Shown here in pieces: positions 49,426-63,431 of a stretch of DNA of 64,000 nucleotides (positions within the stretch are counted from its first letter, which is position 1; every line of letters begins with the position of its first letter). The notes below the pieces were generated by a model. The model was not told the origin of the DNA, searched no databases, and saw only the letters and a program-made list of their open reading frames with translations. The DNA is from a virus: IMG/VR virus record IMGVR_UViG_3300038443_001768, one strand, 5' to 3'. The position numbers and the translations under genes were made by a program.

Positions 49426-49429
49426 TTGA

Positions 49430-49501
49430 ATGCGGGACTCGGGTTCGAACCGAGCCGATGAGCTTCAAAGGCTCACGTGCTGCCAGCTACACCATCCCGC
49501 A
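49430..49501 (-). tRNA. tRNA-Gln(UUG)
   Basis: U1-A72; loop CTTTGAA. Confidence 0.88.
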
Positions 49502-49515
49502 GAGGAAGGAAAACA

Positions 49516-49537
49516 ACTCTAGCATAGTCTCGTGACA
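49516..49537 (-). promoter_or_regulatory. Promoter of tRNA array 1
   Basis: TGTCA-N8-TGCTAGAGT; same motif precedes arrays 2 and 3. Confidence 0.6.
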
Positions 49538-49539
49538 AG

Positions 49540-49970
49540 CGTGGGCCGGACAGCGATGAACGCCGCCCGGCCCACTACCCGGAGAACCATGACCACCAAC
49601 TGCTCCTGTCGCGAAACCTGCGTGCGACAAGCCTGCACTGCCGGACCGGAGAGGAGCGCCGACGACCTAGCGCTCAACTCTCCGGCCCATAAGCCCTTTC
49701 GGGGAGAGGAGGGACTCCACCCTCAACGTCACGACCCGGCGTGGGCAGCCGTTCGGTGATAGCCAATACCACCCAGGTCGATCCGTGCTCATCGACGGGC
49801 CGCCAAGCCCAACACATCGCTGACTCGGAGTGGCTGCTCCTGTCCACCGCTACGACTCCCAGGCTGATGACCCTGTCGTGCAGCTTTTCCCGACGCTTCG
49901 ATGACACTTTAGCCGCGTGCTGCTACGGCTTGTTCGGTCACTCTCTGCCGCACTGGCCGGTGCGGCGTTG
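49540..49970 (-). ncRNA. Candidate large (~430 nt) structured ncRNA
   Basis: Continuous GC-rich hairpins, no convincing ORF, upstream TTGACA/extended -10 promoter (49976-50006), strong 3' hairpin. Confidence 0.55.
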
Positions 49971-50020
49971 AAGGAACTGTAGCACATGTCGAGGGGTGTG
50001 TGTCAAGGCCGAGACGGAAA

Positions 50021-50708
50021 TCAATCTGCGCGCCCGTCGTTCAAGGCGTCGATCCGCGCCTGCGCGTCTTCAATGTCCTCCGCGCACGTCGGCCCGATCC
50101 ACTTGCCTTCCCGCGAGTCGTAGACCTCGCAGCCAGGAGGACCGTGCAGGCAAGCGACGATCGCGGCGTCCTGATCGTCGTAGCCGGTCTCCATGCCCAG
50201 CGCGAACATCCCGGCGCAGCCGACGCGGTAGCGGCTCATCGCCATCCATCCGGCCTGCTCTTTTCGGTCAACGTGGCGATCCCGACGCGCCCCCGCCAGC
50301 GCTTGTCGTCGGCATGGGGGTCGCGGAACTCGTTGCCGCTCAGCGCGCCGTGCAGCGCGTTCCTGACGCCGTGCGCCGGACGGCCTGCGAGCAGGTCGGA
50401 CCGCGCCGTATCGAGCAGATGCAGAAGATCGCGCTGCGCCGCGGTCATCGCTCCGGCGCTCCTTTCTGGCCCATCTCGGCGATCTGCGCGAGCGCTTCCA
50501 CGACCTCGCGCCAGTCGTCGCCCGGCACGCAAGCGAGCCGTGTGCCTTCGAGGTGGTCCACAATCAGATCGGGGACACCGGCCGCGCGCATCCGGCGCTG
50601 GGCGTAGTCGATGCGGTTCCACGCAGCCCCGAGCGCGTCGTAGGCGTGCTTCACGTCGGCCTGGAGATCGTCGATCGACGGGCGCCCGTTTAGTTCTGAA
50701 TTCGTCAT
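50021..50708 (-). other. Three small hypothetical genes (approx. 50021-50239, 50236-50448, 50445-50708)
   Basis: ATGA-coupled ORFs diverging from the CCA-enzyme gene. Confidence 0.55.
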
Positions 50709-50768
50709 GCCGCTAGTATGGCAGCTTCGGGCGTTGCAGTCCAGAGGACGACGTGGTACGCTCCCTCA

Positions 50769-52190: not shown

Positions 52191-52597
52191 CCACCGAGCT
52201 TCTTAGCGGCGACAGGTCTGCTGTTGAGGAGGCGGCGCGGAACATAGAACAAGCCGCGCGCAACCGTTTCGATGCTGGACATGTCTACATGCTTGAGTCG
52301 TCATCAGACAGAGCATATAAAGTCGGATACTCGGTCTCACCGATTGACAGACTCTACGCAATACGCAAGCAGGCCAACGATAAGTCAATCTCCTATGTGG
52401 GCTCGATTAGGGGGGCTCTTCGTCTCGACGAATATGCGATCCACCGAGAACTTGACGAGCTTGGATTGCGCTGGAGCGGCCGCTATTTAGGCACGTTCGA
52501 GTGGTTTCATGCGACGGCGGAGCTTGATGTTTTGGCTGACGTGCTTCGCGGTCTGTCCATCGAACGTAGAAACGCGCGAGGCTTCAGCTACTCTTGA
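52187..52597 (+). CDS. GIY-YIG-like (T5orf172/Mug113) nuclease domain protein
   Basis: GHVYML...YKVGYS..P.DRL, E..IH..L, EWF motifs. Confidence 0.75.
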   Translation: MTTELLSGDRSAVEEAARNIEQAARNRFDAGHVYMLESSSDRAYKVGYSVSPIDRLYAIRKQANDKSISYVGSIRGALRLDEYAIHRELDELGLRWSGRYLGTFEWFHATAELDVLADVLRGLSIERRNARGFSYS

Positions 52598-52622
52598 CAG
52601 CGGTAGCCGGCTTCGCTAGCGT
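52594..52622 (+). promoter_or_regulatory. SigA-type promoter
   Basis: TTGACA-17nt-TAGCGT. Confidence 0.6.
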
Positions 52623-52667
52623 TGCCTTCGCATACTCATCCATCCGAAAGAAGGTTATCCCCTGTCT

Positions 52668-53333
52668 GTGATTGAGGCCAGCGCTGTCTACGGGCAGCGA
52701 CCCATCAACTTCGGAGTCTGGCCACTGGACTGGTCAGAGTACATGCATTACCTGTACTTGCCGGTCGTGATGCCAGGACATCGCGGCGTACGGCTGCCTG
52801 AGCGGTTGCAGTTTCTACGACCGATCGTCGACCTCGTCTGCGCACAGGAAGACATCGCTGTTAGTCTGCCTGACTACTATGTCTATGTGACTGCGCGGCG
52901 GGGCTGGGCGTCGCCCGACAACCCGCTCAACCGGCCCGGCTGGCACTCAGACGGCTTCGGAACCAACGACGTCAACTACATCTGGGCCGATCGCTTTCCG
53001 ACACGCTTCGCGATCCAGGAGTTCGTCGACATCAGCGACAACCACGTCGACTCTCTGCGCCAGTTCGAGGAGCAGAGCGACGAGGACTCGGTCGTCGTCT
53101 ACCCAGACTGCTCGTTGCTGCGGCTCGATCCTGAGGTCATCCACGCGACGCCGGTGGTTCCGCCGCCGGGAGGCGAGCGTAGCTTCTTCAAGATCAGCGT
53201 CTCGTCTGAGCGATACAACTTGGCCGGCAACAGCCACAACTATCTCTTCGACTACGAGTGGCGGATGTGGTCGCGATCAGAGATCCGCAATGACCCCAAC
53301 TACGCTGGCGGCGATGCCGGCCCGCAGTCATGA
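52668..53333 (+). CDS. Putative 2OG-Fe(II) dioxygenase-fold protein
   Basis: RPGWHSDG (HxD), distal VIHATP (H) and RSFFKISVS (R) of the DSBH fold. Confidence 0.65.
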   Translation: MIEASAVYGQRPINFGVWPLDWSEYMHYLYLPVVMPGHRGVRLPERLQFLRPIVDLVCAQEDIAVSLPDYYVYVTARRGWASPDNPLNRPGWHSDGFGTNDVNYIWADRFPTRFAIQEFVDISDNHVDSLRQFEEQSDEDSVVVYPDCSLLRLDPEVIHATPVVPPPGGERSFFKISVSSERYNLAGNSHNYLFDYEWRMWSRSEIRNDPNYAGGDAGPQS

Positions 53334-53505
53334 TCGACGCAGACTTTGAGGGCGAGCGACTGCTCATCGACCTTCTCGAACGCTACGAGTCCGACACTGG
53401 CCGTCAATTGCTGGAAGAGGACTATGAGAGCGTCATCATGACGCACGCATTCGAGGCCGCCAGTCTCGTCGAAAGCGTCTACAGCGAACTAGCAAAGCTT
53501 CCCAC

Positions 53506-54506
53506 ATGAGCGACGACCTAAGGAAGTTCGTCGAGGTCATGGGAGGCGTCCGTTGTATCTGTGGGCACCTACTGCGCCGGCATCGCCGACCAGACCCGAG
53601 CTTCAAGGTCGGCGCGCTGGTCGAGAAGTGCGGCGCGTGCTGGGACTGCGAATGCAAGGGCGAGGTAGGACTTCCCGATGGAGGCGAGGTATGACACTAC
53701 GCGAGGGCCGTCACCATCAGTGGCGCGTGTTCTTCACGGCCGCCGACGAGGACATGGTTGGCGTCCAGTGGCGCGACGAACCAATCTCAGATGACGAACT
53801 CGCTGAGTGGCGACATCAGTTCGTTTGCGACGTTTGGGTTGAGCGGCGCGAAATCATCTGCGGCCCTCCAGTGAGGCTTGATCGATGACGGTATGGGAGT
53901 TCTGGACCTGCGATTGGTGCAACCAGGACAACAGCGGACGCGAGCCACTCTACGAGGACCTAGCAGACGATGAAGGCTGGGTTCAGGTTGATAAGCACGA
54001 GATGAGGGACAACGGTAGCGGGGCGCTTTGGTCGTCTCACGTCGATGAGCACTTTTGTGCAAAATGTCTCACTGATCCAGAACTGTTCGAATATATCGAC
54101 AGCGAGCAATTTAGGCCTGTCTATGGCCGGGACGAAGATCGCCTCAACGCGGCGAGGGCCGCGCTGTGAGGCTGCGCGGCGTGGCGCTGTGGAGATGGAA
54201 GGCGGCGTGTCGCCTCTACCGAATCGGATGCACGGTCGGCGGTAACCATCGCTGGCCCGATCAGTTAGGCCTGGAGTTCGATGAGGTCTGGCGCGAGCAC
54301 TACTGTCCGCACTGCGGGTGGATGCCGTGAGCGTCGGTGACAACCTCGCCCGCTGGAAGGCGTTGCCGACCTGCGCGACCTGGCGCGTCTTCAGTGAGCG
54401 CTGGGGAACCGTGGACTCGATACATGTCGACCATCGCGACGCCCAGAGGCGCGCCGATGAACTCAATCAAGCGGAGGCGCTGAAGCAAGCTCACGGGGAA
54501 CTGTGA
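53506..54506 (+). other. Small hypothetical genes (53506-53694, 53691-53888, 53885-54169, 54318-54506)
   Basis: Coupled ORFs, several with CxxC. Confidence 0.5.
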
Positions 54507-54608
54507 TAGGCTTCCGCGCTCAATCCACAACAAAGGAGGTTATCCACCGGCCTAGGCCGGACCGCTGAGGAAGCGTAAGGGTCCGGAGAGTAGGCCGAGG
54601 GAGATGTT

Positions 54609-55007
54609 ATGCGGAGTACGATCCTGGGGCTCTTGGCCGCCCTCTCACTGGGAGGCCCTTCGGCCTCTGCTCAGGACCACCAGTCCTGCCACACCAAGTC
54701 TTGCACGTTGCGTGTGGAGATGAAGTTCTACAAGAAGCATCCGATGCCCTGGTGCACGTGGGGACCTGAGAGTCCAGGCCATCCTGAGTGGTCGCCGGCC
54801 CGTTACCGTGTCTGGAACACCAGCGGTAGCTCGCCAGAGCGCGCCAGCGGCAAGTTTCAGATCATCGGCCCTACTTGGCGCGCCTACGGAGGTCAGCGTA
54901 TCTCAGGTCGCCGACACGCGGCGGAGGCTGCGCCGGTCTATCAGGAGCGCATCGCGCGAAGTATCGCGCGCGCGAGGCCGTCGCTCTCAGACTGGGTAAA
55001 TTGTTGA
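54609..55007 (+). CDS. Secreted Rpf-like lytic transglycosylase
   Basis: Signal peptide (ASA-Q), C...ES, ASGKFQIIGPTWRAYGG, A.A...QERIA, C-terminal W..C. Confidence 0.8.
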   Translation: MRSTILGLLAALSLGGPSASAQDHQSCHTKSCTLRVEMKFYKKHPMPWCTWGPESPGHPEWSPARYRVWNTSGSSPERASGKFQIIGPTWRAYGGQRISGRRHAAEAAPVYQERIARSIARARPSLSDWVNC

Positions 55008-55021
55008 CCTGAAGAACGACG

Positions 55022-55045
55022 AAAGGCCGCCCTCGGGCGGCCTTT
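55022..55045. terminator. Bidirectional terminator
   Basis: AAAGGCCGCCC...GGGCGGCCTTT. Confidence 0.75.
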
Positions 55046-55051
55046 GTTGTA

Positions 55052-55136
55052 CGGAGAGACAGGGATTCGAACCCTGGAAGGTGTGACCCTTACGCGCTTT
55101 CCAGGCGCGCCCATTCGGCCTCTCTGGCACCTCTCC
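55052..55136 (-). tRNA. tRNA-Ser(GGA)
   Basis: Long variable arm; loop CTGGAAA. Confidence 0.92.
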
Positions 55137-55139
55137 TGA

Positions 55140-55211
55140 AGTCGCGGAGCGGAATCGAACCGCTGTAAACGGGGTTGCAGCCCGTTGCCTAAGCCACTCG
55201 GCCACCGCGAC
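55140..55211 (-). tRNA. tRNA-Cys(GCA)
   Basis: Loop CTGCAAC; U73. Confidence 0.92.
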
Positions 55212-55215
55212 GGAG

Positions 55216-55302
55216 CGGAGAGACAGGGATTCGAACCCTGGAGGCTTTGACACCTACTCGGCTAGCAACCGAGCGCATTCGGCCGGACTCTGCCACCTCT
55301 CC
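55216..55302 (-). tRNA. tRNA-Ser(GCU)
   Basis: Long variable arm; loop TTGCTAG. Confidence 0.92.
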
Positions 55303-55342
55303 TGGCACCCGATCGCGGCCACGTGGACGGCGTCGGGCTGAG

Positions 55343-55426
55343 CGGAAGCAGAGGGATTCGAACCCCCGACGGTGGTTAGCCGCAGCCGCTTTCAAGGCGG
55401 TGTCCTCGACCAGCCGGACTACTTCC
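55343..55426 (-). tRNA. tRNA-Ser(UGA)
   Basis: Long variable arm; loop CTTGAAA. Confidence 0.9.
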
Positions 55427-55431
55427 GTGAG

Positions 55432-55518
55432 CGGATGGTAGAGGATTCGAACCTCTGAGGGTGTTACCCCTACTCGCTTTCGAGGCGAGCGCATTCAACC
55501 AGGCTCTGCCAACCATCC
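55432..55518 (-). tRNA. tRNA-Ser(CGA)
   Basis: Long variable arm; loop CTCGAAA. Confidence 0.92.
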
Positions 55519-55522
55519 GAAA

Positions 55523-55604
55523 TGACGCGCCAAGGACTCGAACCTTGAATGCCGTGAGGCGGCCGGGTTACAGCCGGCTGGGTGCTCCCGCTCCCACACG
55601 CGCC
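55523..55604 (-). tRNA. tRNA-Tyr(GUA)
   Basis: Long variable arm; loop CTGTAAC. Confidence 0.88.
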
Positions 55605-55614
55605 GAGACAGTCA

Positions 55615-55636
55615 ACTGTAGCAGATCTACGCGACA
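55615..55636 (-). promoter_or_regulatory. Promoter of tRNA array 2
   Basis: TGTCG-N8-TGCTACAGT. Confidence 0.6.
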
Positions 55637-56157
55637 AGCGAGCAGACGCCTGTGTCTGGCTCTACGACCTCGATCTCAAAGGTGTTCAGATGCGGAGTCG
55701 CGCGAGCCTCTGCCTCCTCGCGGGCCACGCGCGCCGCTACCTGCTCGGCCGTCTCAGGAATCGGCCAGTTGCCGTTCTCGTCCTTGAGAGCGGTTAGGTC
55801 TTCGCCCAACTGCTCCAACATGAAGAACAATAGCGGTGTATGCGCCTTCTTCTGATTGCAGTCGAAACATGAGCCTGATCGATTTGTCCACGAGCCCTTT
55901 GATCCACCTAGCGCCTTCGGCTGGACGTGGTCAACGGTAGTTCCGCGCAGGCACGCGCAGTATGCACATGGGTCGCGACGGATGATGTGGTCCCAAACGG
56001 CGCGAGATGCGTGCGGCCGGCGCAGTAGGCCGCCAAGACGCGCTCCGGATGGGACGCGAGCGTGGATTAGCTCGTCACCGCACGCAGGGCAAGACTTACC
56101 GCGGAGTTCCGCAGTGAAGCCGGCCTTGCACGAGGAGCACCAGATTAGCTGTGCCAC
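55627..56157 (-). CDS. HNH endonuclease
   Basis: RRDPCAYC...TVDHVQPKALGG...N....CFDCNQKK, plus N-terminal Zn ribbon. Confidence 0.85.
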   Translation of the reverse strand: MAQLIWCSSCKAGFTAELRGKSCPACGDELIHARVPSGARLGGLLRRPHASRAVWDHIIRRDPCAYCACLRGTTVDHVQPKALGGSKGSWTNRSGSCFDCNQKKAHTPLLFFMLEQLGEDLTALKDENGNWPIPETAEQVAARVAREEAEARATPHLNTFEIEVVEPDTGVCSLVA

Positions 56158-56177
56158 CCATGCAGTGTACCAGTTCG

Positions 56178-56525
56178 TTACCCGAGGTCGGTGACGATCT
56201 TGACGGTGAGGTAGCTGTCGGCCGGGAAGGTCTGAATCTTCGACCCCGGCCAGGTGACCTCGATTTCAACGTTGTAGTCGCCTTCGATGTTTGTGTCACC
56301 GGAGATCCACGTGTACTCGACCACGCCGTTTGCGGCATCAAAGACAGTCGCCGCGGCGGCGACCTTAGGTCCTCCCGTCGTCGATGTCTTCAGCCGCATG
56401 ATGAACTTGACCGAGGTGATTCCGGACAGATCTACCGGCGTCGTGACCAACGTCTCAGGATCTGTTTGCAGCAACTGTGCGCGGTATGTGGGCAACAGGT
56501 CGTTGCGCTTCATCGTAAACGACAC
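56178..56525 (-). CDS. BppU-N-like virion protein (paralog of 56705-57037)
   Basis: KRND..P.Y...L, PVDLSG, NGVVEY.W..GDT...GDY..E.EV.W....QTFP. Confidence 0.65.
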   Translation of the reverse strand: MSFTMKRNDLLPTYRAQLLQTDPETLVTTPVDLSGITSVKFIMRLKTSTTGGPKVAAAATVFDAANGVVEYTWISGDTNIEGDYNVEIEVTWPGSKIQTFPADSYLTVKIVTDLG

Positions 56526-56705
56526 TTAGTACTCCTGGGCTGAATAGGTCTTAGGTGTATGCTCCGACGCACCAAAAGATGGACGTGCGTTCTCTACAGC
56601 GGTCACCCCAATCACCGACGGGAACTCGACCATAGTTGGGTCGATCACAGGATTCAGGATCGCATCGAGCGCGTCAATGTATTCGATGGCTTGGTCGTTC
56701 AGCAT
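56526..56705 (-). CDS. Small hypothetical protein (59 aa)
   Basis: ORF filling the gap between the two paralogs, with abutting start/stop codons. Confidence 0.5.
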   Translation of the reverse strand: MLNDQAIEYIDALDAILNPVIDPTMVEFPSVIGVTAVENARPSFGASEHTPKTYSAQEY

Positions 56706-57037
56706 TAGGCTAGATCGTTGACGATCTTACAGGTGAAGTAGCCGTACGAGGGGAATGTTTGCGGTTCGTCGCCCCACATGACCTCAAATTCAACATTGAA
56801 ATCTCCCGCAGTGGCTGTGTCCCCGTCAGCCCATGCGTATTCGACGATCCCATTGACTGGGTCTACGAAATCGGCGGCCGAGTTCACTACTACTACGCCG
56901 CTCTTTCCGGTCATGATGAAGCGAACAGACGACGCGCCTGAAAGATCTACCGGGACCTGGATTCCAGTAGAGGGGTCGCTCTGTGTGAGCTTGACCCGAT
57001 AGCGCGGACGGCGGTCGTGTCGCTTGATGACGAACAT
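56705..57037 (-). CDS. BppU-N-like virion protein
   Basis: Same motif set as 56178-56525. Confidence 0.65.
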   Translation of the reverse strand: MFVIKRHDRRPRYRVKLTQSDPSTGIQVPVDLSGASSVRFIMTGKSGVVVVNSAADFVDPVNGIVEYAWADGDTATAGDFNVEFEVMWGDEPQTFPSYGYFTCKIVNDLA

Positions 57038-57058
57038 TACTAATGAGTGTACAGCGCG

Positions 57059-60000
57059 CTACGAACCGGCCAGCAAGTCGATGACTTCGCCGCTCGCCAC
57101 GTAGGGAATCACATGTCCCGACGCGACAGCAGGAAATACGTGACCGGAGAGTGGGGGCTCATGATGAACGTACGCGATCACAACCGGCCCAGAGATAATG
57201 ATCGCATCCGACAGCACAAACGACTGAGCCAGCACACGCGCCAGCGACTGATGAAAGACCAGCGAGTCGACAAGTACATTCACCTCAGAAACAGAGAAGA
57301 CGCCGCCGCTGGTGCCGGCCACGTTGTCGACCACAACGATTGAGCCGTTCACCGAGCGCACAATCGAAACGGCCCCCGAGAGCGCATCCGCCAACGCCGC
57401 GGTCTCCGCCAGCGCGCGGCTATCAGCGATCAGCGACCCAGCCGCATCAGACAAAAACACCGATGTTGTCGCTGTTCGTCCCAGCGACAAAAGACCCAAT
57501 AGTGTGTCGGCGACGGACAATGACTCAGACGCCGGCCGCGGCAAAACCACGCCCGACGCGGTTACGTCGGCTACGACGACTGACTCATCAAGCGAGCGCG
57601 GGAATGCGCGCACAACGGCATCGCCCAGGGCTAGTGAATCAGAAAGCGATCGAGAGTCACCCACCGACCTCGACAAGCTCTCTGAGAGTGCCGCGGTCTC
57701 CGTGATAGCGAGCGAGTAGGCTCGCTGAATAGTCGCGACACCGAAGGTCTCGGCGGACGAGATCGCAGTCATGTAGAGAGTGCTCGTCGACTGCGCTACA
57801 TCGATCTGGTTGTAGTAGATCCCGTTTGAATCCGAGTACACGTACGGGATCAGTACTTCATTAGAGCGGGTGCCGTTGGTGACGTTGATGCGATTGAATG
57901 TTCCCGCATGCGCGGCCGAACCTAGCCCCAGGGCGTTTGAGAACGACCCCACACCTGGGGTTCCTGAGTAGATTCTCAGGTCGCGGTCGGAGTCCGAGAT
58001 GTGAACTACGACCTCGGTGTCGCGAGCGCCGTTCACCTCGGCGTTTGCGAGGTTCGCTAGGGTCGTGTCCGCGTATGAGTCGCCGGCCGATCCGACATTT
58101 GAACGAATCGTGAACGTCGGCGAATCCGCTGGAGCCCATTCGAGTACGTTCGTATTACCGGCGGAGGTCGTAGACGTGCCCGACGCTCTCCTCCGGTAGG
58201 CGGCGCGCATCCTGATCACTGATGACGAGTCCGCATACATGACCGGCGTCGCCATGTCTAGAGCGGCGTAGAAGTTGTTGGGGCCGTCGATTGACTGTGG
58301 GCCGGTACCACTGATACGGGCGTCGGCGGCGATGAAGGAGTCGGCCGCGCTCAAAACCCGGTAATAGAGGCCGTCGGCTGAGCCACCGGCGGTGGCCTTC
58401 TCGACGAAGAAGTAGGCGCGGTCTGAGTTGTCGATCGCGATTCCAACAACCAGGGCGTCGGCCTGGCCTGCGACTTCCTGCGCCACGAGTACGTCGCGTG
58501 TCCACGTACCGGAGTTCGTCCGCTTAGCGTAGTAGGTGCGCCAATTTCCGGTGGCCGTTTTGCCGTAGGCGATGATGGAGTCGCCGTTTGAGCGCACACC
58601 AAGATAGACACCGACGCCGGTATTGAGGCTGGAGATCCCCGAGTCCTCATCAAGTGTCCATGTGTCTGACGAGGTGTCGAAGCGCGCGTACCTGATTACG
58701 TTGTCGCTCTGTGCGTACGCGACATGAAGGATCGAGCCGACGATCTTTGTATCGACGGCGTCGATGGTCGTGCCGGCCGTGGTTACGGTGCGCTCGCCGG
58801 ACGTGTTGACCGCCGACCACGTGCCCTGCATCGGATCTGCGGCCTTATAGACCCTGACGCTGCGCGAACCCGACACGTCACGGTAGGCGGCCACATAGGT
58901 GGCTCCGTTTGGTGCAACCCACGGACCGCAAGTGCCCGGCTTCGACGACAGCTTGATCGTTGAATCACCAAAGCTGTTCGGTGGGGCAGTGACGCGCGTC
59001 GCGTAGACGTCAGACTTGGGCCGTAGCGTAAACGGTCCGCCTGAGTAATAGGCGCTGCTGTAGCTCTGTGCGGCGACCGCGTTGTCCTCGACGCAGAAGA
59101 CGAGACCGCTGCCGCGATGTCCACGCGTGCTCGTGTAGCGCACCCATTCGCCGTACACGAACGACCCCATGTTGCCGGTGCCGATGTTCTCGGTCGTCCA
59201 GCCTCCGGACGCACCCTCGGTGAACGAGAATGCCATCGTTGGCAAGCCGCTCGACGCGGAGCGGTACGCCATGCCAAGGAGCCCGGGGGCCAACTGCGTC
59301 AGCGCCGGGCGGCCCGACGCAGAGGTCAGACAACTCGAAGCGTCGGGCGTCCATGTTGAGCCGTCGTCGGTAGAGATAGCCCTGAAGAACCGAAACGGCG
59401 AAACAGTATCAGAGCGCATCATGCAGATGATGATGCGGCTGTTATCGCTGCGCGTGTAGACGCACAGGTTGGGCTCAACACGCTCGGTCGTCGCGTCCTG
59501 AGCGATCACGCCGATGTCGGTCCACGACACGCCGCCGTTGGTTGAACGGGCGAGTCGACTGTAACCAATGGTTGATGCTCCGTCGCCGCCGTAGGCGGCC
59601 AGCAGCAGCGTACCTGACCCGTCGGGGATACACACGGGAGGGCCGCTGACGTCGGTGCCCCAGGCGCTACCAGGAAGCGAGGTGTTGGGGTTGGTGGCGG
59701 TGAACGAAAACGGAACCTGGACCGGGTTGCTCCACGTGAACCCGTTGTCGTCGCTGTAGAGCGTCCACGCCGTGTACTCAAGGGTCGTCTTGCTGACGCG
59801 CGTAGCGCTGAGTACGAGCCGGTTGTCGTGCGAGCCTCCCTCGACCTTAGCGAGGCCGAGGTCGAGCCACCCATAGTTGGAATCCGAGCGAAGCTGTGTG
59901 ATCTCAACCGGACTACCCCACGTGGCGCCCTCGTTGGTTGAGCGCAGGTAGTACGAGTACTGATCGAGCGCCAGGTGATGCGTCGCATTGCCGTAGGCGG

Positions 60001-60124
60001 CCAACAGGTCGCCGTTTCCGCACTGGACGCCACCACCGAAGGCGTTGTACTGTTTGCCGGAGAGGTCCTCGTGAAGCTTTGTGTTTGCCCCCCAGCGTGT
60101 CGGGCTGACTTGCTGAACGCTCAT
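57059..60124 (-). CDS. Large virion protein with BNR/Asp-box (sialidase-like propeller) domains
   Basis: Asp boxes STNEGATW, SDDNGFTW, STNGGVSW, STDDGSTW; C-terminal ~18-aa 'R.L.ES...AD' repeats. Confidence 0.75.
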   Translation of the reverse strand: MSVQQVSPTRWGANTKLHEDLSGKQYNAFGGGVQCGNGDLLAAYGNATHHLALDQYSYYLRSTNEGATWGSPVEITQLRSDSNYGWLDLGLAKVEGGSHDNRLVLSATRVSKTTLEYTAWTLYSDDNGFTWSNPVQVPFSFTATNPNTSLPGSAWGTDVSGPPVCIPDGSGTLLLAAYGGDGASTIGYSRLARSTNGGVSWTDIGVIAQDATTERVEPNLCVYTRSDNSRIIICMMRSDTVSPFRFFRAISTDDGSTWTPDASSCLTSASGRPALTQLAPGLLGMAYRSASSGLPTMAFSFTEGASGGWTTENIGTGNMGSFVYGEWVRYTSTRGHRGSGLVFCVEDNAVAAQSYSSAYYSGGPFTLRPKSDVYATRVTAPPNSFGDSTIKLSSKPGTCGPWVAPNGATYVAAYRDVSGSRSVRVYKAADPMQGTWSAVNTSGERTVTTAGTTIDAVDTKIVGSILHVAYAQSDNVIRYARFDTSSDTWTLDEDSGISSLNTGVGVYLGVRSNGDSIIAYGKTATGNWRTYYAKRTNSGTWTRDVLVAQEVAGQADALVVGIAIDNSDRAYFFVEKATAGGSADGLYYRVLSAADSFIAADARISGTGPQSIDGPNNFYAALDMATPVMYADSSSVIRMRAAYRRRASGTSTTSAGNTNVLEWAPADSPTFTIRSNVGSAGDSYADTTLANLANAEVNGARDTEVVVHISDSDRDLRIYSGTPGVGSFSNALGLGSAAHAGTFNRINVTNGTRSNEVLIPYVYSDSNGIYYNQIDVAQSTSTLYMTAISSAETFGVATIQRAYSLAITETAALSESLSRSVGDSRSLSDSLALGDAVVRAFPRSLDESVVVADVTASGVVLPRPASESLSVADTLLGLLSLGRTATTSVFLSDAAGSLIADSRALAETAALADALSGAVSIVRSVNGSIVVVDNVAGTSGGVFSVSEVNVLVDSLVFHQSLARVLAQSFVLSDAIIISGPVVIAYVHHEPPLSGHVFPAVASGHVIPYVASGEVIDLLAGS

Positions 60125-60130
60125 CAGCGC

Positions 60131-60559
60131 TTAGAGCTTGAAGATCTTGCCGGTCGAGTTGTCCCAGGCTACGATGATGTCGCCGCCATTGGGTGTGACG
60201 GGCAGGTTCGTCATAGTGTCGACGTAGGCGATGAGGCGCTGAGCGGAAGCCGCAACATCGGCCCCGCCAGTGACGGCGGAGGCCTGATAAATGATCACGC
60301 TGGTGATTGAGGCTCCGGAGGCCACGGACGCGAACGTAGCGTCGCTGGCGTCGGCGACACCGCCGGTAATGGTCTTCGAGGTCAGCGTCACAGTGGCAAC
60401 GAGAGTGCCGCCTCCAGCGCCTGTGACGTCGGAGACGAACTTATGCGAAGAACTATATGTGTAGCCGCGAACCAGCGACACCTTGATCGTCGCTGTGTCC
60501 CAGTCGATCTCTCCAGCTAGGAAGCCCTCGCGGCCTGCGTCATAGAGCGCGTTGGCCAT
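60131..60559 (-). CDS. Conserved phage structural protein
   Basis: MANALYD...IDW...IKV.LV ... LPVTPNGGDI.V.W...IFKL pattern typical of virion accessory proteins. Confidence 0.65.
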   Translation of the reverse strand: MANALYDAGREGFLAGEIDWDTATIKVSLVRGYTYSSSHKFVSDVTGAGGGTLVATVTLTSKTITGGVADASDATFASVASGASITSVIIYQASAVTGGADVAASAQRLIAYVDTMTNLPVTPNGGDIIVAWDNSTGKIFKL

Positions 60560-60567
60560 GGGCGTGA

Positions 60568-61476
60568 TTAGCTCCTAGTCAGCGTGAAGGTGATCGTGAT
60601 GGCGTCGCCAGACGTGGTCAGCGTTGCCGTGGACGAGAGGTTCTTCTCGTATCCAAGGGTTCCAGACGACGACGCGTTGAGCGCTCCGAACTTAGCGATC
60701 GTCACAGGTAGGGAGTCTGAGCCATTGGCTGTCCACGTCGCGGTCAGCGTCGCGGTCGACGTGCCCGTCGTGTGCGCGTACGTCATCTGCTTACGCAGAA
60801 GGCCGCCACCGGCGGTGGTGATCTCGCTCGGCAGGGTCGTGTTCGCGGCCGACTCGGCGGCTGTTGAGGCGGAAAGCGCGCCGTAGTTGAAGGACGCGGG
60901 CTGGGCCGATGTCGATAGATGCTGGCCGAAGAATGCGTCCTGACCTGCGTTGGTCATCAACAGCCGCGCGTTGGCGTAGTCGACGTCAAACAAGGTGTCC
61001 CATTCGCGCGCACGGTAGCCGCGGAAGGACAAGCCGATCTCGTCACCGAAGGCGGCTGAGTACGGCCGATCGTCGCCGCCGTTGTTGAACAGCGGGTCGT
61101 CGTATGGGTGGACGCTCGGGCCGGCCCAATCGGACGGACGTCCGACCGAGCAGCCGAAGTATGCGGCTACGGCGGCGGCCAACGCAGGGTCATCAGACTC
61201 TACCCAATCAGCAGGATCGTCTGAGTGCGACTCCCACCAGGAGTCGCGGATGTCTTCGAGGTGCAGGAAGTACGGACGATGCTCGTTGCTCAGCGCGGCA
61301 AGGCGCTCTCGGCGCTCGCGCGAATCACGACCGCGGCCCTCTCCGGATGCGATGAGGGCGATGCTGGGGCTGTTTGGCTCACGAGCAAACTCGAAGCGCG
61401 TTAGCTGCTTGTCCTCATGTACGTCGCCATCGGAGGTCTTGGCGGACGAGTTTCCTAGAAGTACGACGGCTGACAT
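60568..61476 (-). CDS. Putative virion protein
   Basis: C-terminal 'LMTNAG...T.L..EI...GGL.R...TY.HT.G...TSGDAITIT' structural-protein pattern. Confidence 0.55.
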   Translation of the reverse strand: MSAVVLLGNSSAKTSDGDVHEDKQLTRFEFAREPNSPSIALIASGEGRGRDSRERRERLAALSNEHRPYFLHLEDIRDSWWESHSDDPADWVESDDPALAAAVAAYFGCSVGRPSDWAGPSVHPYDDPLFNNGGDDRPYSAAFGDEIGLSFRGYRAREWDTLFDVDYANARLLMTNAGQDAFFGQHLSTSAQPASFNYGALSASTAAESAANTTLPSEITTAGGGLLRKQMTYAHTTGTSTATLTATWTANGSDSLPVTIAKFGALNASSSGTLGYEKNLSSTATLTTSGDAITITFTLTRS

Positions 61477-61581
61477 GTCTCTGTTTCTTGTTCCTGGAAT
61501 CGACCCATTTTGCGGCGAATGTCTCATCAACAGTACCCGACGGTTCGCCATCAACGGCTCTGGATGTGGTACGCTTCCTGG

Positions 61582-62070
61582 ATGCGTCCAGTCATGTACA
61601 TCGTCGCCAACGAGGGGCTCGGCATGTCGCCAGGCAAGCTCGCTGCCCAGGCCGCCCATGCCGCCGTAGAGGCCTACCGGCTATCGTGTCCGATCCCGGT
61701 ATGGCACCCAGACCAAGACAAGCTGCGCTTCGAAGGACGCGAGGTCGTGCAGGAGTGGTACAAGGGCGGCCACTACACGAAGATCGTCCTCGGCGCTCGC
61801 GACTCTCAACACCTGTTGACGCTGGAGCGCTACATCAAGGAGCGTGGATTCAAGACCGCGTTGATCATCGATGAGGGTCGGACAGAGATCGAGCCACACT
61901 CGCCGACAGCGATCGGCGTCGAGATCGTCGACAAGGACGACGAGCACACATGGGCAACGTTTGGGTCGATCAAGCTCTTCGGGCAGGCCAGCGGTCCGCC
62001 CAAGCGAGTCGACTACGACGCCGCGACTGTGAGCCGCTACGGAAAGTTCTTCAACGCGCTCAAGAGCTAG
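61582..62070 (+). CDS. pth2: Peptidyl-tRNA hydrolase, Pth2 family
   Basis: MYIVANEGLGMSPGKLAAQAAHAA, TKIVL, IIDEGRTEIEP.SPTAIG. Confidence 0.92.
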   Translation: MRPVMYIVANEGLGMSPGKLAAQAAHAAVEAYRLSCPIPVWHPDQDKLRFEGREVVQEWYKGGHYTKIVLGARDSQHLLTLERYIKERGFKTALIIDEGRTEIEPHSPTAIGVEIVDKDDEHTWATFGSIKLFGQASGPPKRVDYDAATVSRYGKFFNALKS

Positions 62071-62072
62071 TC

Positions 62073-62201
62073 GTGCGTAGTCCGCTCTGGGCCGTTTACA
62101 GCCTCGTGATGACCAGTGTCGTGGCTGTGTACGGAGTGCTCACGATTCGATTGTTGCGTGAGTTCAGAGCAGAGTACGAGGAGTACAAGGACTTGCTGTA
62201 G
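62073..62201 (+). CDS. Small membrane protein
   Basis: 42 aa with one hydrophobic helix. Confidence 0.4.
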   Translation: MRSPLWAVYSLVMTSVVAVYGVLTIRLLREFRAEYEEYKDLL

Positions 62202-62208
62202 AACGACG

Positions 62209-62232
62209 AAAAGCCCCCATCTCAGGGGGCTT
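62209..62232. terminator. Bidirectional terminator
   Basis: AAGCCCCC-loop-GGGGGCTT. Confidence 0.7.
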
Positions 62233-62239
62233 CTCTATA

Positions 62240-62313
62240 TGGAGCCGGCTGGATTTGAACCAGCGACCTCACGGGCTTCAACCGTCCGCTCTACCGGGCT
62301 GAGCTACGACTCC
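62240..62313 (-). tRNA. tRNA-Phe(GAA)
   Basis: Cloverleaf; loop TTGAAGC. Confidence 0.88.
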
Positions 62314-62388
62314 GAGCCCCGGGCTCGCACCGGGAACCATCAGGCTCGTAGTACCTGACCTTTGGACGCCCTTGGCGTCGGTGCATTG
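62314..62388 (-). ncRNA. tRNA-sized structured element / degenerate tRNA
   Basis: GACGCC/GGCGTC, TCAGG/CCTGA and CCCGG-TGCGAGC-CCGGG hairpins; no canonical acceptor stem. Confidence 0.4.
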
Positions 62389-62390
62389 AG

Positions 62391-62462
62391 AGCAGGCGAC
62401 GGGGCTCGAACCCGCTCTTGAGGCTTGGAAGGCCGCCGTGCAACCGGTAACACTTCACCTGC
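62391..62462 (-). tRNA. tRNA-Gly(UCC)
   Basis: Loop CTTCCAA; U73. Confidence 0.88.
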
Positions 62463-62466
62463 TTGA

Positions 62467-62538
62467 AGCTCCCGCAGAGACTTGAACTCTACCATCTCGG
62501 GTACGAACCGAGCGCAACGCCATCTTTGCTTCGGGAGC
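62467..62538 (-). tRNA. tRNA-Thr(CGU)
   Basis: Loop TTCGTAC. Confidence 0.85.
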
Positions 62539-62673
62539 GAACAGGCCGGCGCTCTACCGTTGAGCTACAAGCGGGCGAACCATCAAGGAGCGACCTCGAA
62601 GTAATCCGACTCGACGTGCACGTCGAGAAGGGTTGCCGCCAGGGCGGATTCGAACCACCAACCTCCGGCCGTA
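62539..62673 (-). ncRNA. Circularly permuted tRNA(Asn)-like RNA / YrlA-like tRNA mimic
   Basis: On the - strand the tRNA 3' half (GCCGG-AGGTT-GGTGG TTCGAAT CCGCC-CTGGCGG; 62672-62635) precedes the 5' half (CCGCTTG-TA-GCTC AACGGTA GAGC-G-CCGGC-CT-GTT; 62574-62540), joined by a 60-nt linker. Confidence 0.8.
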
Positions 62674-62674
62674 A

Positions 62675-62748
62675 AGCCGACTGTGGGACTCGAACCCACG
62701 ACATTCGTCTTACAAGGACGACGCTCTAGCCATCTGAGCTAAGTCGGC
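62675..62748 (-). tRNA. tRNA-Thr(UGU)
   Basis: Loop CTTGTAA. Confidence 0.9.
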
Positions 62749-62751
62749 GGA

Positions 62752-62823
62752 AGCTGCGACCGAGAATTGAACCCGGGACTCGACCGTACCAAGGTCGCGT
62801 GTTACCACTAGCACCATCGCAGC
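62752..62823 (-). tRNA. tRNA-Thr(GGU)
   Basis: Loop TTGGTAC. Confidence 0.9.
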
Positions 62824-62827
62824 GAAG

Positions 62828-62901
62828 TGGTGCCGACAGGAATCGAACCTGCGTTCTTCGGGGTAAAAGCCCGCTGCAAGGCCAACGTTTGCTACGACAC
62901 C
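62828..62901 (-). tRNA. tRNA-Lys(UUU)
   Basis: Loop CTTTTAC. Confidence 0.88.
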
Positions 62902-62904
62902 GTA

Positions 62905-62979
62905 TGCCCCGGGCAGGAATCGAACCTGCGTGCCAGTGGGTAAGAGCCACTTTCTAAAGCCAGCTTTTGTTACCGAGGC
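62905..62979 (-). tRNA. tRNA-Lys(CUU)
   Basis: Loop CTCTTAC; weak D stem. Confidence 0.82.
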
Positions 62980-62984
62980 GAGGA

Positions 62985-63057
62985 AGTGGAAGACGGGACT
63001 CGAACCCGCGGCCTTCTCCATGGCAAGGAGACGCTCTACCAACTGAGCTACATCCAC
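62985..63057 (-). tRNA. tRNA-Gly(GCC)
   Basis: Loop TTGCCAT. Confidence 0.92.
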
Positions 63058-63062
63058 GAAAG

Positions 63063-63136
63063 TTGGCCCTCTGGGACTCGAACCCAGGACCTCCCGCGTA
63101 TCAGACGGACGCTCTAACCAACTGAGCTAAGGACCA
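63063..63136 (-). tRNA. tRNA-Ile(GAU)
   Basis: Loop CTGATAC. Confidence 0.9.
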
Positions 63137-63142
63137 TTGAAG

Positions 63143-63214
63143 TGCTCGATGTAGGATTCGAACCTACGACCCCACGCTTGTAAGGCGCGTGCTCTCCCGC
63201 TGAGCTAATCGAGC
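63143..63214 (-). tRNA. tRNA-Val(UAC)
   Basis: Loop CTTACAA. Confidence 0.92.
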
Positions 63215-63218
63215 GAAG

Positions 63219-63291
63219 TGGAGGATACGGGACTTGAACCCGTGACTTCCAGCATGCCATGCTGGCGCTCTCCCAACTGAGCTAATCCCCC
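63219..63291 (-). tRNA. tRNA-Ala(GGC)
   Basis: G3:U70; loop ATGGCAT. Confidence 0.92.
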
Positions 63292-63357
63292 ATGGCTGGT
63301 TGATAACGGTGACTAGCTCACCGAGTCCGGAGTTAGGGCCTCCGGACTAGGAACCCA
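63292..63357 (-). ncRNA. Three-way-junction structured element between the two Ala tRNAs
   Basis: GGTT/AACC closing stem; AGTCCGGAG-GCCCTAA-CTCCGGACT (9 bp) and CGGTGA-GCTAG-TCACCG (6 bp). Confidence 0.45.
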
Positions 63358-63431
63358 TGGACCAGGAGGGATTCGAACCCTCAACCCTCTGCGTGCAAAG
63401 CAGGCGCTCTACCAATTGGAGCTACAAGCCC
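63358..63431 (-). tRNA. tRNA-Ala(UGC)
   Basis: G3:U70; loop TTTGCAC. Confidence 0.9.

What the first reader, a model, noticed from the sequence alone, without database searches (positions are those of the whole stretch)
62539..62673. Circularly permuted tRNA(Asn)-like gene inside a phage tRNA operon
Seen: between tRNA-Thr(UGU) and tRNA-Thr(CGU) the transcript reads 3' half first. It has the anticodon 3' strand (AC)GGCCGG, variable loop AGGUU, a perfect T arm GGUGG-UUCGAAU-CCGCC and acceptor strand CUGGCGG. A 60-nt linker follows, with a perfect palindrome CUCGACG-UGCA-CGUCGAG and GGUU/AACC extending the acceptor stem. Then comes the 5' half: CCGCUUG, UA, canonical D arm GCUC-AACGGUA-GAGC, G26, CCGGC, CU, GUU. 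The RNA ends therefore fall in the anticodon loop, just after a GUU (Asn) triplet. Known: permuted tRNA genes occur in some algae and archaea and mature via a circular intermediate, and bacterial YrlA Y RNAs have the same T-acceptor-D order and are linked to Rsr/RtcB. No long Ro-binding stem or Rsr gene is visible in this window. Inference: it is either (a) a permuted tRNA excised by processing of its neighbours, ligated (possibly by the phage RtcB) and matured by RNase P plus the phage CCA enzyme, or (b) a pre-nicked, elbow-preserving tRNA mimic acting as a decoy for anticodon nucleases or tRNA sensors. Simple joining gives a non-canonical loop and a normal Asn tRNA exists at 49275, so (b) is at least as plausible.
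Basis: partly seen in the sequence, partly recalled or inferred. Interest (0 to 1): 0.92.

Follow-up and report, generated by a model that had tools for sequence, protein, structure and literature searches.

The report
Inside-out tRNA mimic in phage operon
An uncultured large phage carries, between two threonine tRNA genes, a conserved 136-base RNA gene with every part of a tRNA body joined in swapped order and no anticodon loop, so it is most likely a non-decoding tRNA look-alike, not a split tRNA awaiting re-joining.

Summary
On the minus strand, 62674-62539 reads: anticodon-stem 3' strand, variable loop, T arm, acceptor 3' strand, 60-nt two-hairpin linker, acceptor 5' strand, D arm, anticodon-stem 5' strand. 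All class-I tertiary-contact bases are present. Swapping the halves makes ARAGORN call a tRNA. Of 127,728 equally built windows, only this site and one marginal hit do so.

An identical copy lies on a separate metagenome contig. A 91.5% identical copy lies between the same neighbours in two related phage contigs. Core and linker changed at 3-5% against about 20% for nearby spacers. The two single-stranded tails, which hold the "GUU", changed at 25% and look like ordinary inter-tRNA spacers.

Re-joining would give a 9-nt loop (8 nt in relatives) with U33 not kept, and a normal tRNA-Asn exists. The build matches the tRNA-like module of YrlA Y RNAs, but there is no Ro-binding handle. A 99%-complete relative has no rsr gene.

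My best reading is a stand-alone tRNA mimic released by normal tRNA processing. The phage lineage also encodes RtcB, RlaP, a CCA-adding enzyme, PTH2, an RNA ligase and an RNase P-like RNA. Its function is inferred, not shown. The scan has noted similar inside-out tRNAs in other phages.

The parts
62671..62674 (-). 5' tail UUAC. It resembles an ordinary post-tRNA spacer and is probably the 5' end left after RNase Z cuts the upstream tRNA-Thr(UGU).
   Evidence: 31 of 33 inter-tRNA spacers are U-initial and mostly 3-5 nt. The tail is UAU in relatives.
62665..62670 (-). GGCCGG, the 3' strand of the terminal ('anticodon') stem, positions 38-43.
   Evidence: It pairs perfectly with CCGGCC at 62544-62549 and is invariant in relatives.
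62660..62664 (-). Variable loop AGGUU (positions 44-48).
   Evidence: Direct reading. A44, G46 and U48 fit the G26:A44, G46 triple and A15:U48 contacts. Invariant in relatives.
62643..62659 (-). T arm GGUGG-UUCGAAU-CCGCC.
   Evidence: The only change in relatives is at loop position 59.
62635..62642 (-). Acceptor 3' strand CUGGCGG plus discriminator C73.
   Evidence: It pairs 6 of 7 with CCGCUUG and is invariant in relatives.
62575..62634 (-). 60-nt linker capping the acceptor helix. It holds AACC (62631-62634), hairpin 1 CUCGACG-UGCA-CGUCGAG (62610-62627), hairpin 2 UCGAGG-UCGCU-CCUUGA (62583-62599) and GGUU (62578-62581).
   Evidence: 3 substitutions in 60 aligned nt against the relatives, all in hairpin stems and all pair-preserving (C-G>U-G, C-G>U-G, G-U>G-C). 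Fisher p = 0.003 against neighbouring spacers.
62566..62574 (-). Acceptor 5' strand CCGCUUG plus U8 A9.
   Evidence: Rfam tRNA model positions 1-9. Invariant in relatives.
62551..62565 (-). D arm GCUC-AACGGUA-GAGC.
   Evidence: Relatives differ only in the variable part of the D loop.
62544..62550 (-). G26 plus CCGGCC, the 5' strand of the terminal ('anticodon') stem.
   Evidence: Invariant in relatives.
62539..62543 (-). 3' tail UGUUC, holding the supposed GUU. It is spacer-like and ends where RNase P would cut 5' of tRNA-Thr(CGU).
   Evidence: It is AGUUC in relatives, so U33 is not kept. It has the length and form of the other spacers.
62240..63431 (-). The tRNA operon that carries the element: Ala, Ala, Val, Ile, Gly, Lys, Lys, Thr, Thr, ELEMENT, Thr, Gly, Phe, followed by a terminator-like hairpin at 62214-62228.
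   Evidence: ARAGORN and Rfam. The pattern scan found no promoter- or terminator-like site inside the array.

Best explanation
The element is a real, selectively maintained gene for a tRNA-shaped non-coding RNA with circularly permuted connectivity. It is transcribed as one unit of the polycistronic tRNA operon (inferred).

Its ends are made by the ordinary tRNA-trimming cuts on its neighbours (inferred from established enzymology). RNase Z cuts after tRNA-Thr(UGU) and RNase P cuts before tRNA-Thr(CGU).

It folds into a complete tRNA body: elbow, acceptor helix and anticodon stem. The anticodon loop is missing, because the termini sit there. The acceptor end is capped by a conserved two-hairpin insert.

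It is therefore a stand-alone version of the tRNA-like module of YrlA-type Y RNAs, without the Ro60-binding handle. It most likely acts as a non-decoding tRNA mimic that engages proteins which recognise the tRNA body. Candidates are host tRNA-targeting nucleases or sensors, or the phage's own tRNA repair and maturation enzymes.

Whether the cap is later cut by RNase P and given CCA, as in Mycobacterium smegmatis YrlA, is open. I put it at about even odds.
For: Anatomy and specificity:
- Full tRNA body with all tertiary-contact bases (direct reading).
- ARAGORN calls a tRNA after the in-silico swap.
- The site is unique among 127,728 equal-geometry windows and in stricter variable-linker scans.
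- The proposed fold is within 0.2-0.5 kcal/mol of the minimum free energy in both lineages.

Conservation:
- Same position between the same tRNAs in a second lineage. tRNA-Lys(UUU) was gained or lost between the lineages, yet the element is present in both.
- Core: 2 of 67 substitutions. Linker: 3 of 60. Nearby non-tRNA DNA: 46 of 230. Fisher p = 2e-4 and 3e-3.
- All three stem changes in the linker keep pairing.

Against an anticodon:
- The tails change at 2 of 8 positions plus an indel.
- The joined loop would be 9 nt here and 8 nt in relatives, and U33 becomes A.
- The tails match the form of the other spacers.

Context:
- The lineage carries RtcB, RlaP, a CCA-adding enzyme and PTH2.
- A relative carries a PF09414 RNA ligase and an RNase P-like RNA.
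- RlaP and such ligases are described as tRNA-repair enzymes (bioRxiv 10.64898/2025.12.29.696909; PMC7824862).

Precedent: YrlA has the same T arm, capped acceptor stem and D arm order, and is handled by tRNA enzymes (PMC4201824).
Against: - There are no expression, end-mapping or binding data.
- Only two sequence lineages carry the element. There is therefore no double-sided covariation, and conservation rests on one pairwise comparison.
- More distant relatives (L125-L127) have contigs that stop before this part of the array.
- No partner protein was identified.
- The neutral proxies may themselves be partly constrained. That would make the test conservative, not lenient.
- A ligase able to join 5'-P and 3'-OH ends exists in a relative, so circularisation cannot be excluded.
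Confidence: 0.6

Rival explanations
1. It is a true circularly permuted tRNA gene. The ends freed by RNase Z and RNase P are ligated into a circle. RNase P and RNase Z then remove the linker, CCA is added, and the product decodes (Asn, or a longer codon via an expanded loop).
For: - The half order and a 60-nt intervening sequence fit the algal and archaeal class, whose intervening sequences span 1-74 bp (PMC3978253).
- ARAGORN accepts the joined halves.
- The triplet GUU is kept in both lineages.
- A relative encodes a PF09414/phrog_548 RNA ligase that uses 5'-P and 3'-OH ends.
- A CCA-adding enzyme and an RNase P-like RNA are present.
- An earlier scan note reports a permuted tRNA-Asn in another phage (unchecked).
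Against: - The joined loop is 9 nt here and 8 nt in relatives (6 nt if an extra A-U pair forms). It is never 7 nt.
- U33 is not conserved.
- The tails evolve at the spacer rate and resemble ordinary spacers.
- The discriminator is C73, whereas the phage's own tRNA-Asn has G73.
- A normal tRNA-Asn(GUU) exists at 49274-49347.
- No bulge-helix-bulge motif is possible, because the flanks are tRNAs.
- The linker is conserved as strongly as the body, which is unexpected for a discarded spacer.
- RtcB cannot join these ends (established enzymology).
Confidence: 0.1
2. It is a member of the YrlA Y RNA family and works with a Ro60/Rsr protein, either a divergent phage one or the host's. It would tether that protein to other factors.
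For: - Same module order as YrlA. The weak Rfam YrlA match covers model positions 23-85 (23.7 bits).
- The rsr-adjacent YrlA-like RNA of mycobacteriophage Bxz1 also scores only 32.5 bits, on the same model positions, so a low score alone does not exclude kinship.
- Phage YrlA RNAs are known (PMC4201824).
- RtcB is often linked to rsr-yrlA operons (PMC7790460).
Against: - There is no room for a Ro-binding helix. The 6-bp terminal stem is flanked within 4-5 nt by tRNAs.
- There is no GNCGAAN0-1G motif (direct reading).
- No TROVE gene occurs in the 99%-complete relative or the 74% one, although the same search finds it in Bxz1.
- No TROVE or vWA hit occurred among 93 ORFs outside the window region or among the window ORFs scanned.
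- Tandem tRNAs score as high as this element with the YrlA model.
Confidence: 0.08
3. It is a cis-acting structural unit of the operon transcript. It would serve as a folding or processing spacer that helps RNase P and RNase Z handle the neighbouring tRNAs, or as a transcript stabiliser, with no role as a free RNA.
For: - It is embedded between tRNAs with ordinary spacers.
- Other long ORF-free gaps exist in the arrays, and one (63292-63357) is also conserved at 92%.
Against: A processing spacer has no need for a complete set of tRNA tertiary-contact bases, a 7-bp acceptor helix or a Levitt pair. Most tRNAs in the arrays are separated by only 3-5 nt and evidently need no such unit.
Confidence: 0.1
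4. It is a decaying remnant of a rearrangement, such as a tandem tRNA duplication with both outer halves deleted, and has no function.
For: Array content does turn over: tRNA-Lys(UUU) is present here and absent in relatives. The body is not close to any resident tRNA, at 56 of 76 identities or fewer.
Against: - The substitution rate of core and linker is 4-6 times lower than in adjacent non-tRNA DNA.
- No stem is disrupted in either lineage.
- All tertiary-contact bases are intact.
- The junctions sit exactly where ordinary spacers would.
Confidence: 0.05

Closest known systems
YrlA-type bacterial and phage Y RNAs (Rfam RF02553; Chen et al. 2014, PMC4201824), especially the M. smegmatis and mycobacteriophage forms
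   Same: The order is T arm, acceptor-like stem closed by a loop, then D arm, with the RNA termini emerging from the 'anticodon stem' side. M. smegmatis YrlA has a 7-bp acceptor stem, is cut by RNase P and receives CCA. The Bxz1 copy (129979-130055) shares the D-arm sequence and the T loop.
   Different: Here there is no long terminal helix or GNCGAAN0-1G Ro-binding motif. No rsr/TROVE gene occurs in near-complete relatives. The element sits as one unit inside a tRNA operon, bounded by tRNAs. The acceptor cap is a conserved 60-nt two-hairpin insert, not the short cap of about 17 nt seen in the Bxz1 copy.
Circularly permuted tRNA genes of Cyanidioschyzon merolae, green algae and Thermofilum pendens (Soma 2014, PMC3978253)
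   Same: The 3' half lies upstream of the 5' half, with an intervening sequence between the acceptor ends. In the green-algal (type II) genes the junction also lies in the anticodon loop. RNase P, RNase Z and CCA addition would suffice to open the acceptor end.
   Different: Those genes re-join into canonical tRNAs via a bulge-helix-bulge motif and the splicing endonuclease. Here there is no such motif, bacteria lack that endonuclease, the joined loop is non-canonical and variable, and the matching normal tRNA already exists.
Two-piece (circularly permuted) tmRNA of alpha-proteobacteria and others (Keiler et al. 2000, cited in PMC3978253)
   Same: It is a bacterial precedent for a permuted tRNA-like domain. 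Its acceptor-end linker is excised, leaving two base-paired pieces (from my own knowledge).
   Different: Here there is no tag reading frame or pseudoknots. The D arm is full and canonical. ARAGORN calls no tmRNA.
Stable non-tRNA RNAs in the phage T4 tRNA gene cluster (species 1 and 2; from my own knowledge, not checked here)
   Same: They are small stable RNAs co-transcribed and processed with phage tRNAs, and their function has long been unknown.
   Different: As far as I recall they are not permuted tRNA bodies. No sequence comparison was made.
Inside-out tRNA mimics noted earlier in this scan (DUF7873-linked two-headed RNAs; Ro60-like-linked phage Y-like RNAs)
   Same: They are anticodon-less, back-to-front tRNA bodies, some inside phage tRNA clusters (AI notes, unchecked).
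   Different: Here there is a single head, no conserved handle and no adjacent partner gene. No DUF7873 or TROVE family appeared among the ORFs I scanned.

Membership tests
YrlA / Y RNA-like (RF02553) | Reaches the Rfam gathering score (69 bits) | tested here: not met
   23.7 bits, model positions 23-85 only. Tandem tRNAs reach 31.6 bits. Caveat: the rsr-adjacent Bxz1 copy also reaches only 32.5 bits, so this criterion discriminates poorly.
YrlA / Y RNA-like (RF02553) | tRNA-like module in the order T arm, capped acceptor stem, D arm | tested here: met
YrlA / Y RNA-like (RF02553) | Ro60-binding module: 5' GNCGAAN0-1G motif and terminal helix beyond the tRNA-like module (PMC4201824) | tested here: not met
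   Only a 6-bp stem, then 4-5 nt, then the neighbouring tRNAs. The motif is absent by direct reading. Bxz1 shows a 10-bp GGGGAGGCAG/CUGCCUCCCC helix for comparison.
YrlA / Y RNA-like (RF02553) | Encoded within about 4 kb of an rsr (TROVE) gene on the same strand | tested here: not met
   No TROVE match in G001 or G002 (99% complete). The positive control in Bxz1 scored 77.9 bits. None among the scanned window ORFs. The rest of the window's own genome could not be searched.
Circularly permuted tRNA genes | 3' half upstream of 5' half, with an intervening sequence between the acceptor ends | tested here: met
Circularly permuted tRNA genes | Joining the termini yields a canonical cloverleaf with a 7-nt anticodon loop | tested here: not met
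   The loop is 9 nt in the window and 8 nt in L005. ARAGORN must distort the arm to call the simple join.
Circularly permuted tRNA genes | Bulge-helix-bulge motif at the junction, processed by the splicing endonuclease | tested here: not met
   Leader and trailer are the adjacent tRNAs plus 4-5 nt, and no leader-trailer helix can form. That bacteria lack the endonuclease is established knowledge, not tested here.
Circularly permuted tRNA genes | Circular RNA intermediate and a mature, charged tRNA | not testable with these tools
   This needs RNA from infected cells.
Two-piece tmRNA | Tag reading frame and pseudoknots attached to the permuted tRNA-like domain | tested here: not met
   ARAGORN finds no tmRNA. 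The element is bounded by tRNAs, leaving no room.
Canonical tRNA (RF00005) | Contiguous cloverleaf that reaches the gathering score | tested here: not met
   No tRNA hit over the element in place. Only the halves match when cut out.

The most novel reading that the evidence does not exclude
The element is a Ro-independent, stand-alone tRNA-body RNA with no anticodon loop and a capped acceptor end. The phage makes it from its tRNA operon as a counter-defence tool. Because it has no loop, anticodon nucleases cannot cleave it. It could act as a decoy or inhibitor for host anticodon nucleases or tRNA-damage sensors, or as a cofactor for the phage's RtcB, RlaP and ligase repair kit. That would be a free-standing class of phage tRNA-mimic RNA distinct from Y RNAs.
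Probability: 0.25. Interest if true: 0.8.

Novelty: new variant of a known kind. Interest (0 to 1): 0.6.

Why it matters
Phage tRNA genes are now understood partly as countermeasures to host tRNA-cleaving defences (PMC10264068, PMC11464382, PMC11555353). A conserved tRNA body that cannot decode would add an RNA-mimicry layer to that conflict. Here it is encoded inside a tRNA operon by a phage that also carries RtcB, RlaP, an RNA ligase, a CCA-adding enzyme, PTH2 and an RNase P-like RNA.

It would also show that the tRNA-like module known from Ro60-bound Y RNAs can work without Ro60. That bears on the open question of what the module does.

In practice, such genes are invisible to tRNA finders, and in Rfam they are indistinguishable from tandem tRNAs.

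Tried and rejected
Searches for further relatives that led nowhere:
- Generic and specific DNA patterns in IMG/VR found only false positives or the two known contigs.
All 80 checked (two IMG/VR loci went through the same filter) are ordinary adjacent bacterial tRNA genes with no matching acceptor strands, mostly tRNA-Arg(UCU) followed by tRNA-His. My pattern was too loose.
- Protein anchors next to the array found no new lineage with this part of the array. The anchors were the 363-aa protein, the portal, the 902-aa protein and a CCA alignment.
- Homologues of the 902-aa protein lie in tail modules of unrelated phages of about 60 kb.
- CCA-enzyme homologues gave three more distant relatives with syntenic arrays (L125-L127). 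Their contigs end before the Thr block; L125 stops 128 nt past tRNA-Phe.
- PTH2 homologues gave no further array with the element.
- GenBank phages hold no close relative.

Rejected as evidence: the Rfam YrlA hit, because tandem tRNAs score the same.

Rejected on rereading: a G-1:C73 tRNA-His-like feature. Position -1 is C.

Other points:
- Thermodynamic z-score of the fold is -0.77, not significant. I believe this is usual for tRNAs (my own knowledge).
- Looking up DUF7873 by name failed. It was not among the Pfam hits of the ORFs scanned.
- No paralogue of the element exists in the window or in G002.
- No RNA family hit lies near the RtcB-RlaP genes.

Full report
**Setting**

The window is part of an uncultured tailed phage. 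It carries a large terminase, portal, prohead protease, major capsid and tail tube genes. It also carries 36 tRNA genes in three minus-strand arrays.

No whole genome is held for the window. Proteins identical to window-encoded ones are recorded on contigs of up to 142 kb. No cultured phage is close: the portal is under 30% identical to anything in GenBank phages, and other proteins gave no match.

**The observation**

The 136 nt between tRNA-Thr(UGU) and tRNA-Thr(CGU) read, on the transcribed minus strand:

UUAC / GGCCGG / AGGUU / GGUGG-UUCGAAU-CCGCC / CUGGCGG / C / 60-nt linker / CCGCUUG / UA / GCUC-AACGGUA-GAGC / G / CCGGCC / UGUUC

This is a class-I tRNA whose 3' half precedes its 5' half. 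By direct reading it keeps U8, A14, A15:U48, G18 G19, A21, G26:A44, G46, U54 U55 C56, A58 and G53:C61.

- The acceptor helix has 6 of 7 pairs: one U.U and one G.U.
- The T stem has one U.G.
- The terminal stem has six perfect G-C pairs.
- The linker holds a 7-bp hairpin with a UGCA loop and a 6-bp hairpin with a UCGCU loop.
- With the tRNA helices enforced, the fold is within 0.5 kcal/mol of the unconstrained optimum here, and within 0.2 kcal/mol in the relative.

**More than chance**

- Swapping the halves in silico makes ARAGORN call a tRNA in 30 of 31 trimming variants.
- The same swap on every 136-nt window of both strands (127,728 windows) gave calls only at this site, plus one marginal call overlapping a tRNA-Ser.
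- A scan anchored on T-loop motifs, with linkers of 0-300 nt, covered 1.0 Mb of fetched loci. It gave many hybrids of neighbouring tRNAs at default stringency. At 115% only this element, its homologue and one tRNA-Pro/Pro hybrid remained.
- Cut out alone, the 5' half aligns to Rfam tRNA positions 1-36 at 17.1 bits. The 3' half aligns to the 3' part of a tRNA-clan model (the tRNA-Sec model scored best, 12.4 bits).

**Not an artefact**

A separate JGI contig (L122) holds a 100% identical copy. Two IMG/VR contigs from other samples hold a 140-nt copy between the same two Thr tRNAs. These are G001 (103 kb) and G002 (139.5 kb, rated 99% complete).

**Conservation**

I compared the whole array with the second lineage.

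| Region | Identity or substitutions |
|---|---|
| Most bona fide tRNAs | 90-100% identical (tRNA-Phe is 76%) |
| Element | 91.5% identical |
| Upstream flank, downstream flank and one long spacer | 74-81% identical |
| Element core | 2 of 67 aligned bases changed |
| Element linker | 3 of 60 changed |
| Element tails | 2 of 8 changed, plus an indel |
| Non-tRNA neighbours | 46 of 230 changed |

tRNA-Lys(UUU) is present in only one of the two lineages, yet the element is present in both. The Fisher tests against the neighbours give p = 2e-4 for the core, 3e-3 for the linker and 0.8 for the tails.

- The two core changes lie at D-loop and T-loop positions that vary among tRNAs.
- The three linker changes all lie in hairpin stems, and all keep pairing.
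- The body and the linker therefore appear constrained, and the tails do not.
- This rests on one pairwise comparison. There are no double compensatory changes.

**Why it is probably not a tRNA-Asn awaiting re-joining**

1. A simple join gives CCGGCC-UGUUCUUAC-GGCCGG, a 9-nt loop. The relatives give AGUUCUAU, which is 8 nt, or 6 nt if an extra A-U pair forms. The universally conserved U33 has become A there.
2. The tails look like every other spacer in these arrays. Of 33 inter-tRNA spacers, 31 start with U, and most are 3-5 nt (UUC, UAC, UUUC, UCCUC and so on). UUAC and UGUUC fit that pattern. The GUU is best read as spacer sequence.
3. The discriminator is C73. The phage's real tRNA-Asn(GUU) at 49274-49347 has G73.
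4. The body is not a recent copy of any resident tRNA, at 56 of 76 identities or fewer.
5. RNase Z and RNase P leave 5'-phosphate and 3'-hydroxyl ends. RtcB joins 3'-phosphate or cyclic-phosphate ends to 5'-hydroxyl ends (established enzymology; PMC7824862).
6. A discarded intervening sequence would not be expected to be as conserved as the body.

One caveat: G002 encodes a 309-aa PF09414/phrog_548 RNA ligase outside the window region. That enzyme class uses exactly such ends. Circularisation is therefore not excluded on enzymatic grounds.

**Comparison with Y RNAs**

The order of parts is that of the YrlA tRNA-like module: T arm, capped acceptor stem, D arm, with the termini on the anticodon-stem side. 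Rfam's YrlA model matches positions 23-85 at 23.7 bits, against a gathering score of 69.

That hit is not evidence, because tandem tRNAs in the relatives score up to 31.6 bits. Chen et al. already warned of this false positive (PMC4201824).

As a control I searched mycobacteriophage Bxz1. TROVE/Rsr is found at 130313-131344. The YrlA-like RNA 258 nt upstream scores only 32.5 bits, on the same model positions. So the Rfam score neither includes nor excludes.

The other defining features are not met:
- There is no terminal helix beyond six pairs and no GNCGAAN0-1G motif. Bxz1 shows a 10-bp helix flanking its module.
- No TROVE gene occurs in G001 or G002.
- No TROVE, vWA or DUF7873 family appeared among 93 ORFs of G002 outside the window region, nor among the window ORFs I scanned.

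The element has the architecture of YrlA's tRNA-like module. By the published criteria it is not a YrlA family member.

**Processing, inferred**

The array has a terminator-like hairpin after tRNA-Phe, and the pattern scan found no internal promoter or terminator. The element is presumably co-transcribed. Cuts on its neighbours would release pUUAC-GGCCGG...CCGGCC-UGUUC-OH.

Its 7-bp acceptor helix and discriminator could allow RNase P and 3'-end cleavage followed by CCA addition. This was shown for M. smegmatis YrlA (PMC4201824). The product would be a two-piece, nicked tRNA body.

Against that, the base after C73 is A, not the U that follows nearly every real tRNA here. AACC can also pair with GGUU to extend the helix, and the linker is conserved. 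I leave this step at even odds.

**Context**

- RtcB: 16379-17725, minus strand.
- RlaP nucleotidyltransferase: 14721-15449, minus strand.
- CCA-adding enzyme with HD domain: 50718-52190, plus strand.
- PTH2 peptidyl-tRNA hydrolase: 61582-62070, plus strand. It is 50% identical to the one next to the same array in a more distant relative.
- In G002: an RNA ligase, and a 304-nt match to the full length of the bacterial RNase P RNA model. It scores 28.4 bits, has the CR-I and CR-V sequences, and is below the gathering score.

RlaP adds one or two nucleotides to damaged RNA 3' ends before ligation (bioRxiv 10.64898/2025.12.29.696909). Together these genes suggest a phage that maintains and repairs its own tRNA pool, presumably against tRNA-targeting host defences (PMC10264068, PMC7824862). 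That makes a tRNA-body mimic plausible as a decoy, sponge or cofactor. Nothing here shows which.

**Relation to earlier scan notes**

The scan has noted similar inside-out tRNA bodies on other DNA. These are unchecked AI leads.
- Some are linked to Ro60-like proteins.
- Some are two-headed RNAs next to DUF7873.
- One is a permuted tRNA-Asn that re-joins canonically.

This element differs from all three. It has a single head, no handle, no adjacent partner gene, and a join that is not canonical.

**Verdict**

This is a real, conserved, permuted tRNA-like gene. The most likely reading is a non-decoding tRNA mimic, a Ro-independent variant of the YrlA-type module that sits as a unit within a phage tRNA operon. 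Its function is inferred.

Noticed in passing
G002:C1:22521-22824 (L124:1501-1804, minus strand) and G001:C1:30467-30770. It scores 28.4 bits against a gathering score of 100, with E = 2e-6. CR-I (GAGGAAGUUCGGGG) and CR-V (ACAGAACCCCGGCU) are recognisable. This is a candidate phage-encoded, reduced RNase P RNA.
   Followed up: partly
window 14721-15449 (-), 16379-17725 (-), 50718-52190 (+), 61582-62070 (+); G002:C1:60648-61577 (+): A tRNA maintenance and repair kit: RlaP nucleotidyltransferase, RtcB ligase, CCA-adding enzyme with HD domain, and PTH2 peptidyl-tRNA hydrolase. The relative also has a PF09414/phrog_548 ATP-dependent RNA ligase with no PDB sequence match.
   Followed up: partly
window 48231-48395, 48985-49111, 55303-55341, 62314-62389, 63292-63357 (minus strand): Five other long ORF-free gaps (165, 127, 39, 76 and 66 nt) lie inside arrays whose spacers are otherwise mostly 3-5 nt (a few reach 11-19 nt). 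The 66-nt gap between the two tRNA-Ala genes is 92% identical to the relative, like a tRNA. The 76-nt gap is only 79% identical. None is a permuted tRNA by my scan.
   Followed up: partly
window 62827-62901 compared with L005:8835-8839: tRNA-Lys(UUU) is present in the window but missing as a clean whole-gene indel in the G001/G002 lineage. This shows gene-by-gene turnover of the array.
   Followed up: no
all three arrays, window 47745-63431: 31 of 33 spacers that follow a tRNA begin with U directly after the discriminator. No tRNA encodes CCA. This fits RNase Z-type 3' processing plus the phage CCA enzyme.
   Followed up: no
L002:1700-1745 and L003 (IMG/VR 3300042401_001110 and 3300042445_003528): In an unrelated AT-rich phage tRNA cluster, a T arm (GUUGGUUCGAAUCCAAC) with a following acceptor-like strand lies about 65 nt upstream of tRNA-Asn. 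It is outside any ARAGORN tRNA call. It may be an unrecognised or odd tRNA-like gene.
   Followed up: no
G002 contig ends (1-203 and 138917-139406): The 139.5-kb relative contig begins and ends inside tRNA array 1, and the His-to-Asn part is missing. The assembly seems to have broken within the tRNA repeats of a circularly permuted or circular map.
   Followed up: no
window 54609-55007 (+); L126:6768-7172: A small protein with a weak transglycosylase-like (Rpf-type) match between the arrays, conserved in a more distant relative. It hints at an actinobacterial host.
   Followed up: no
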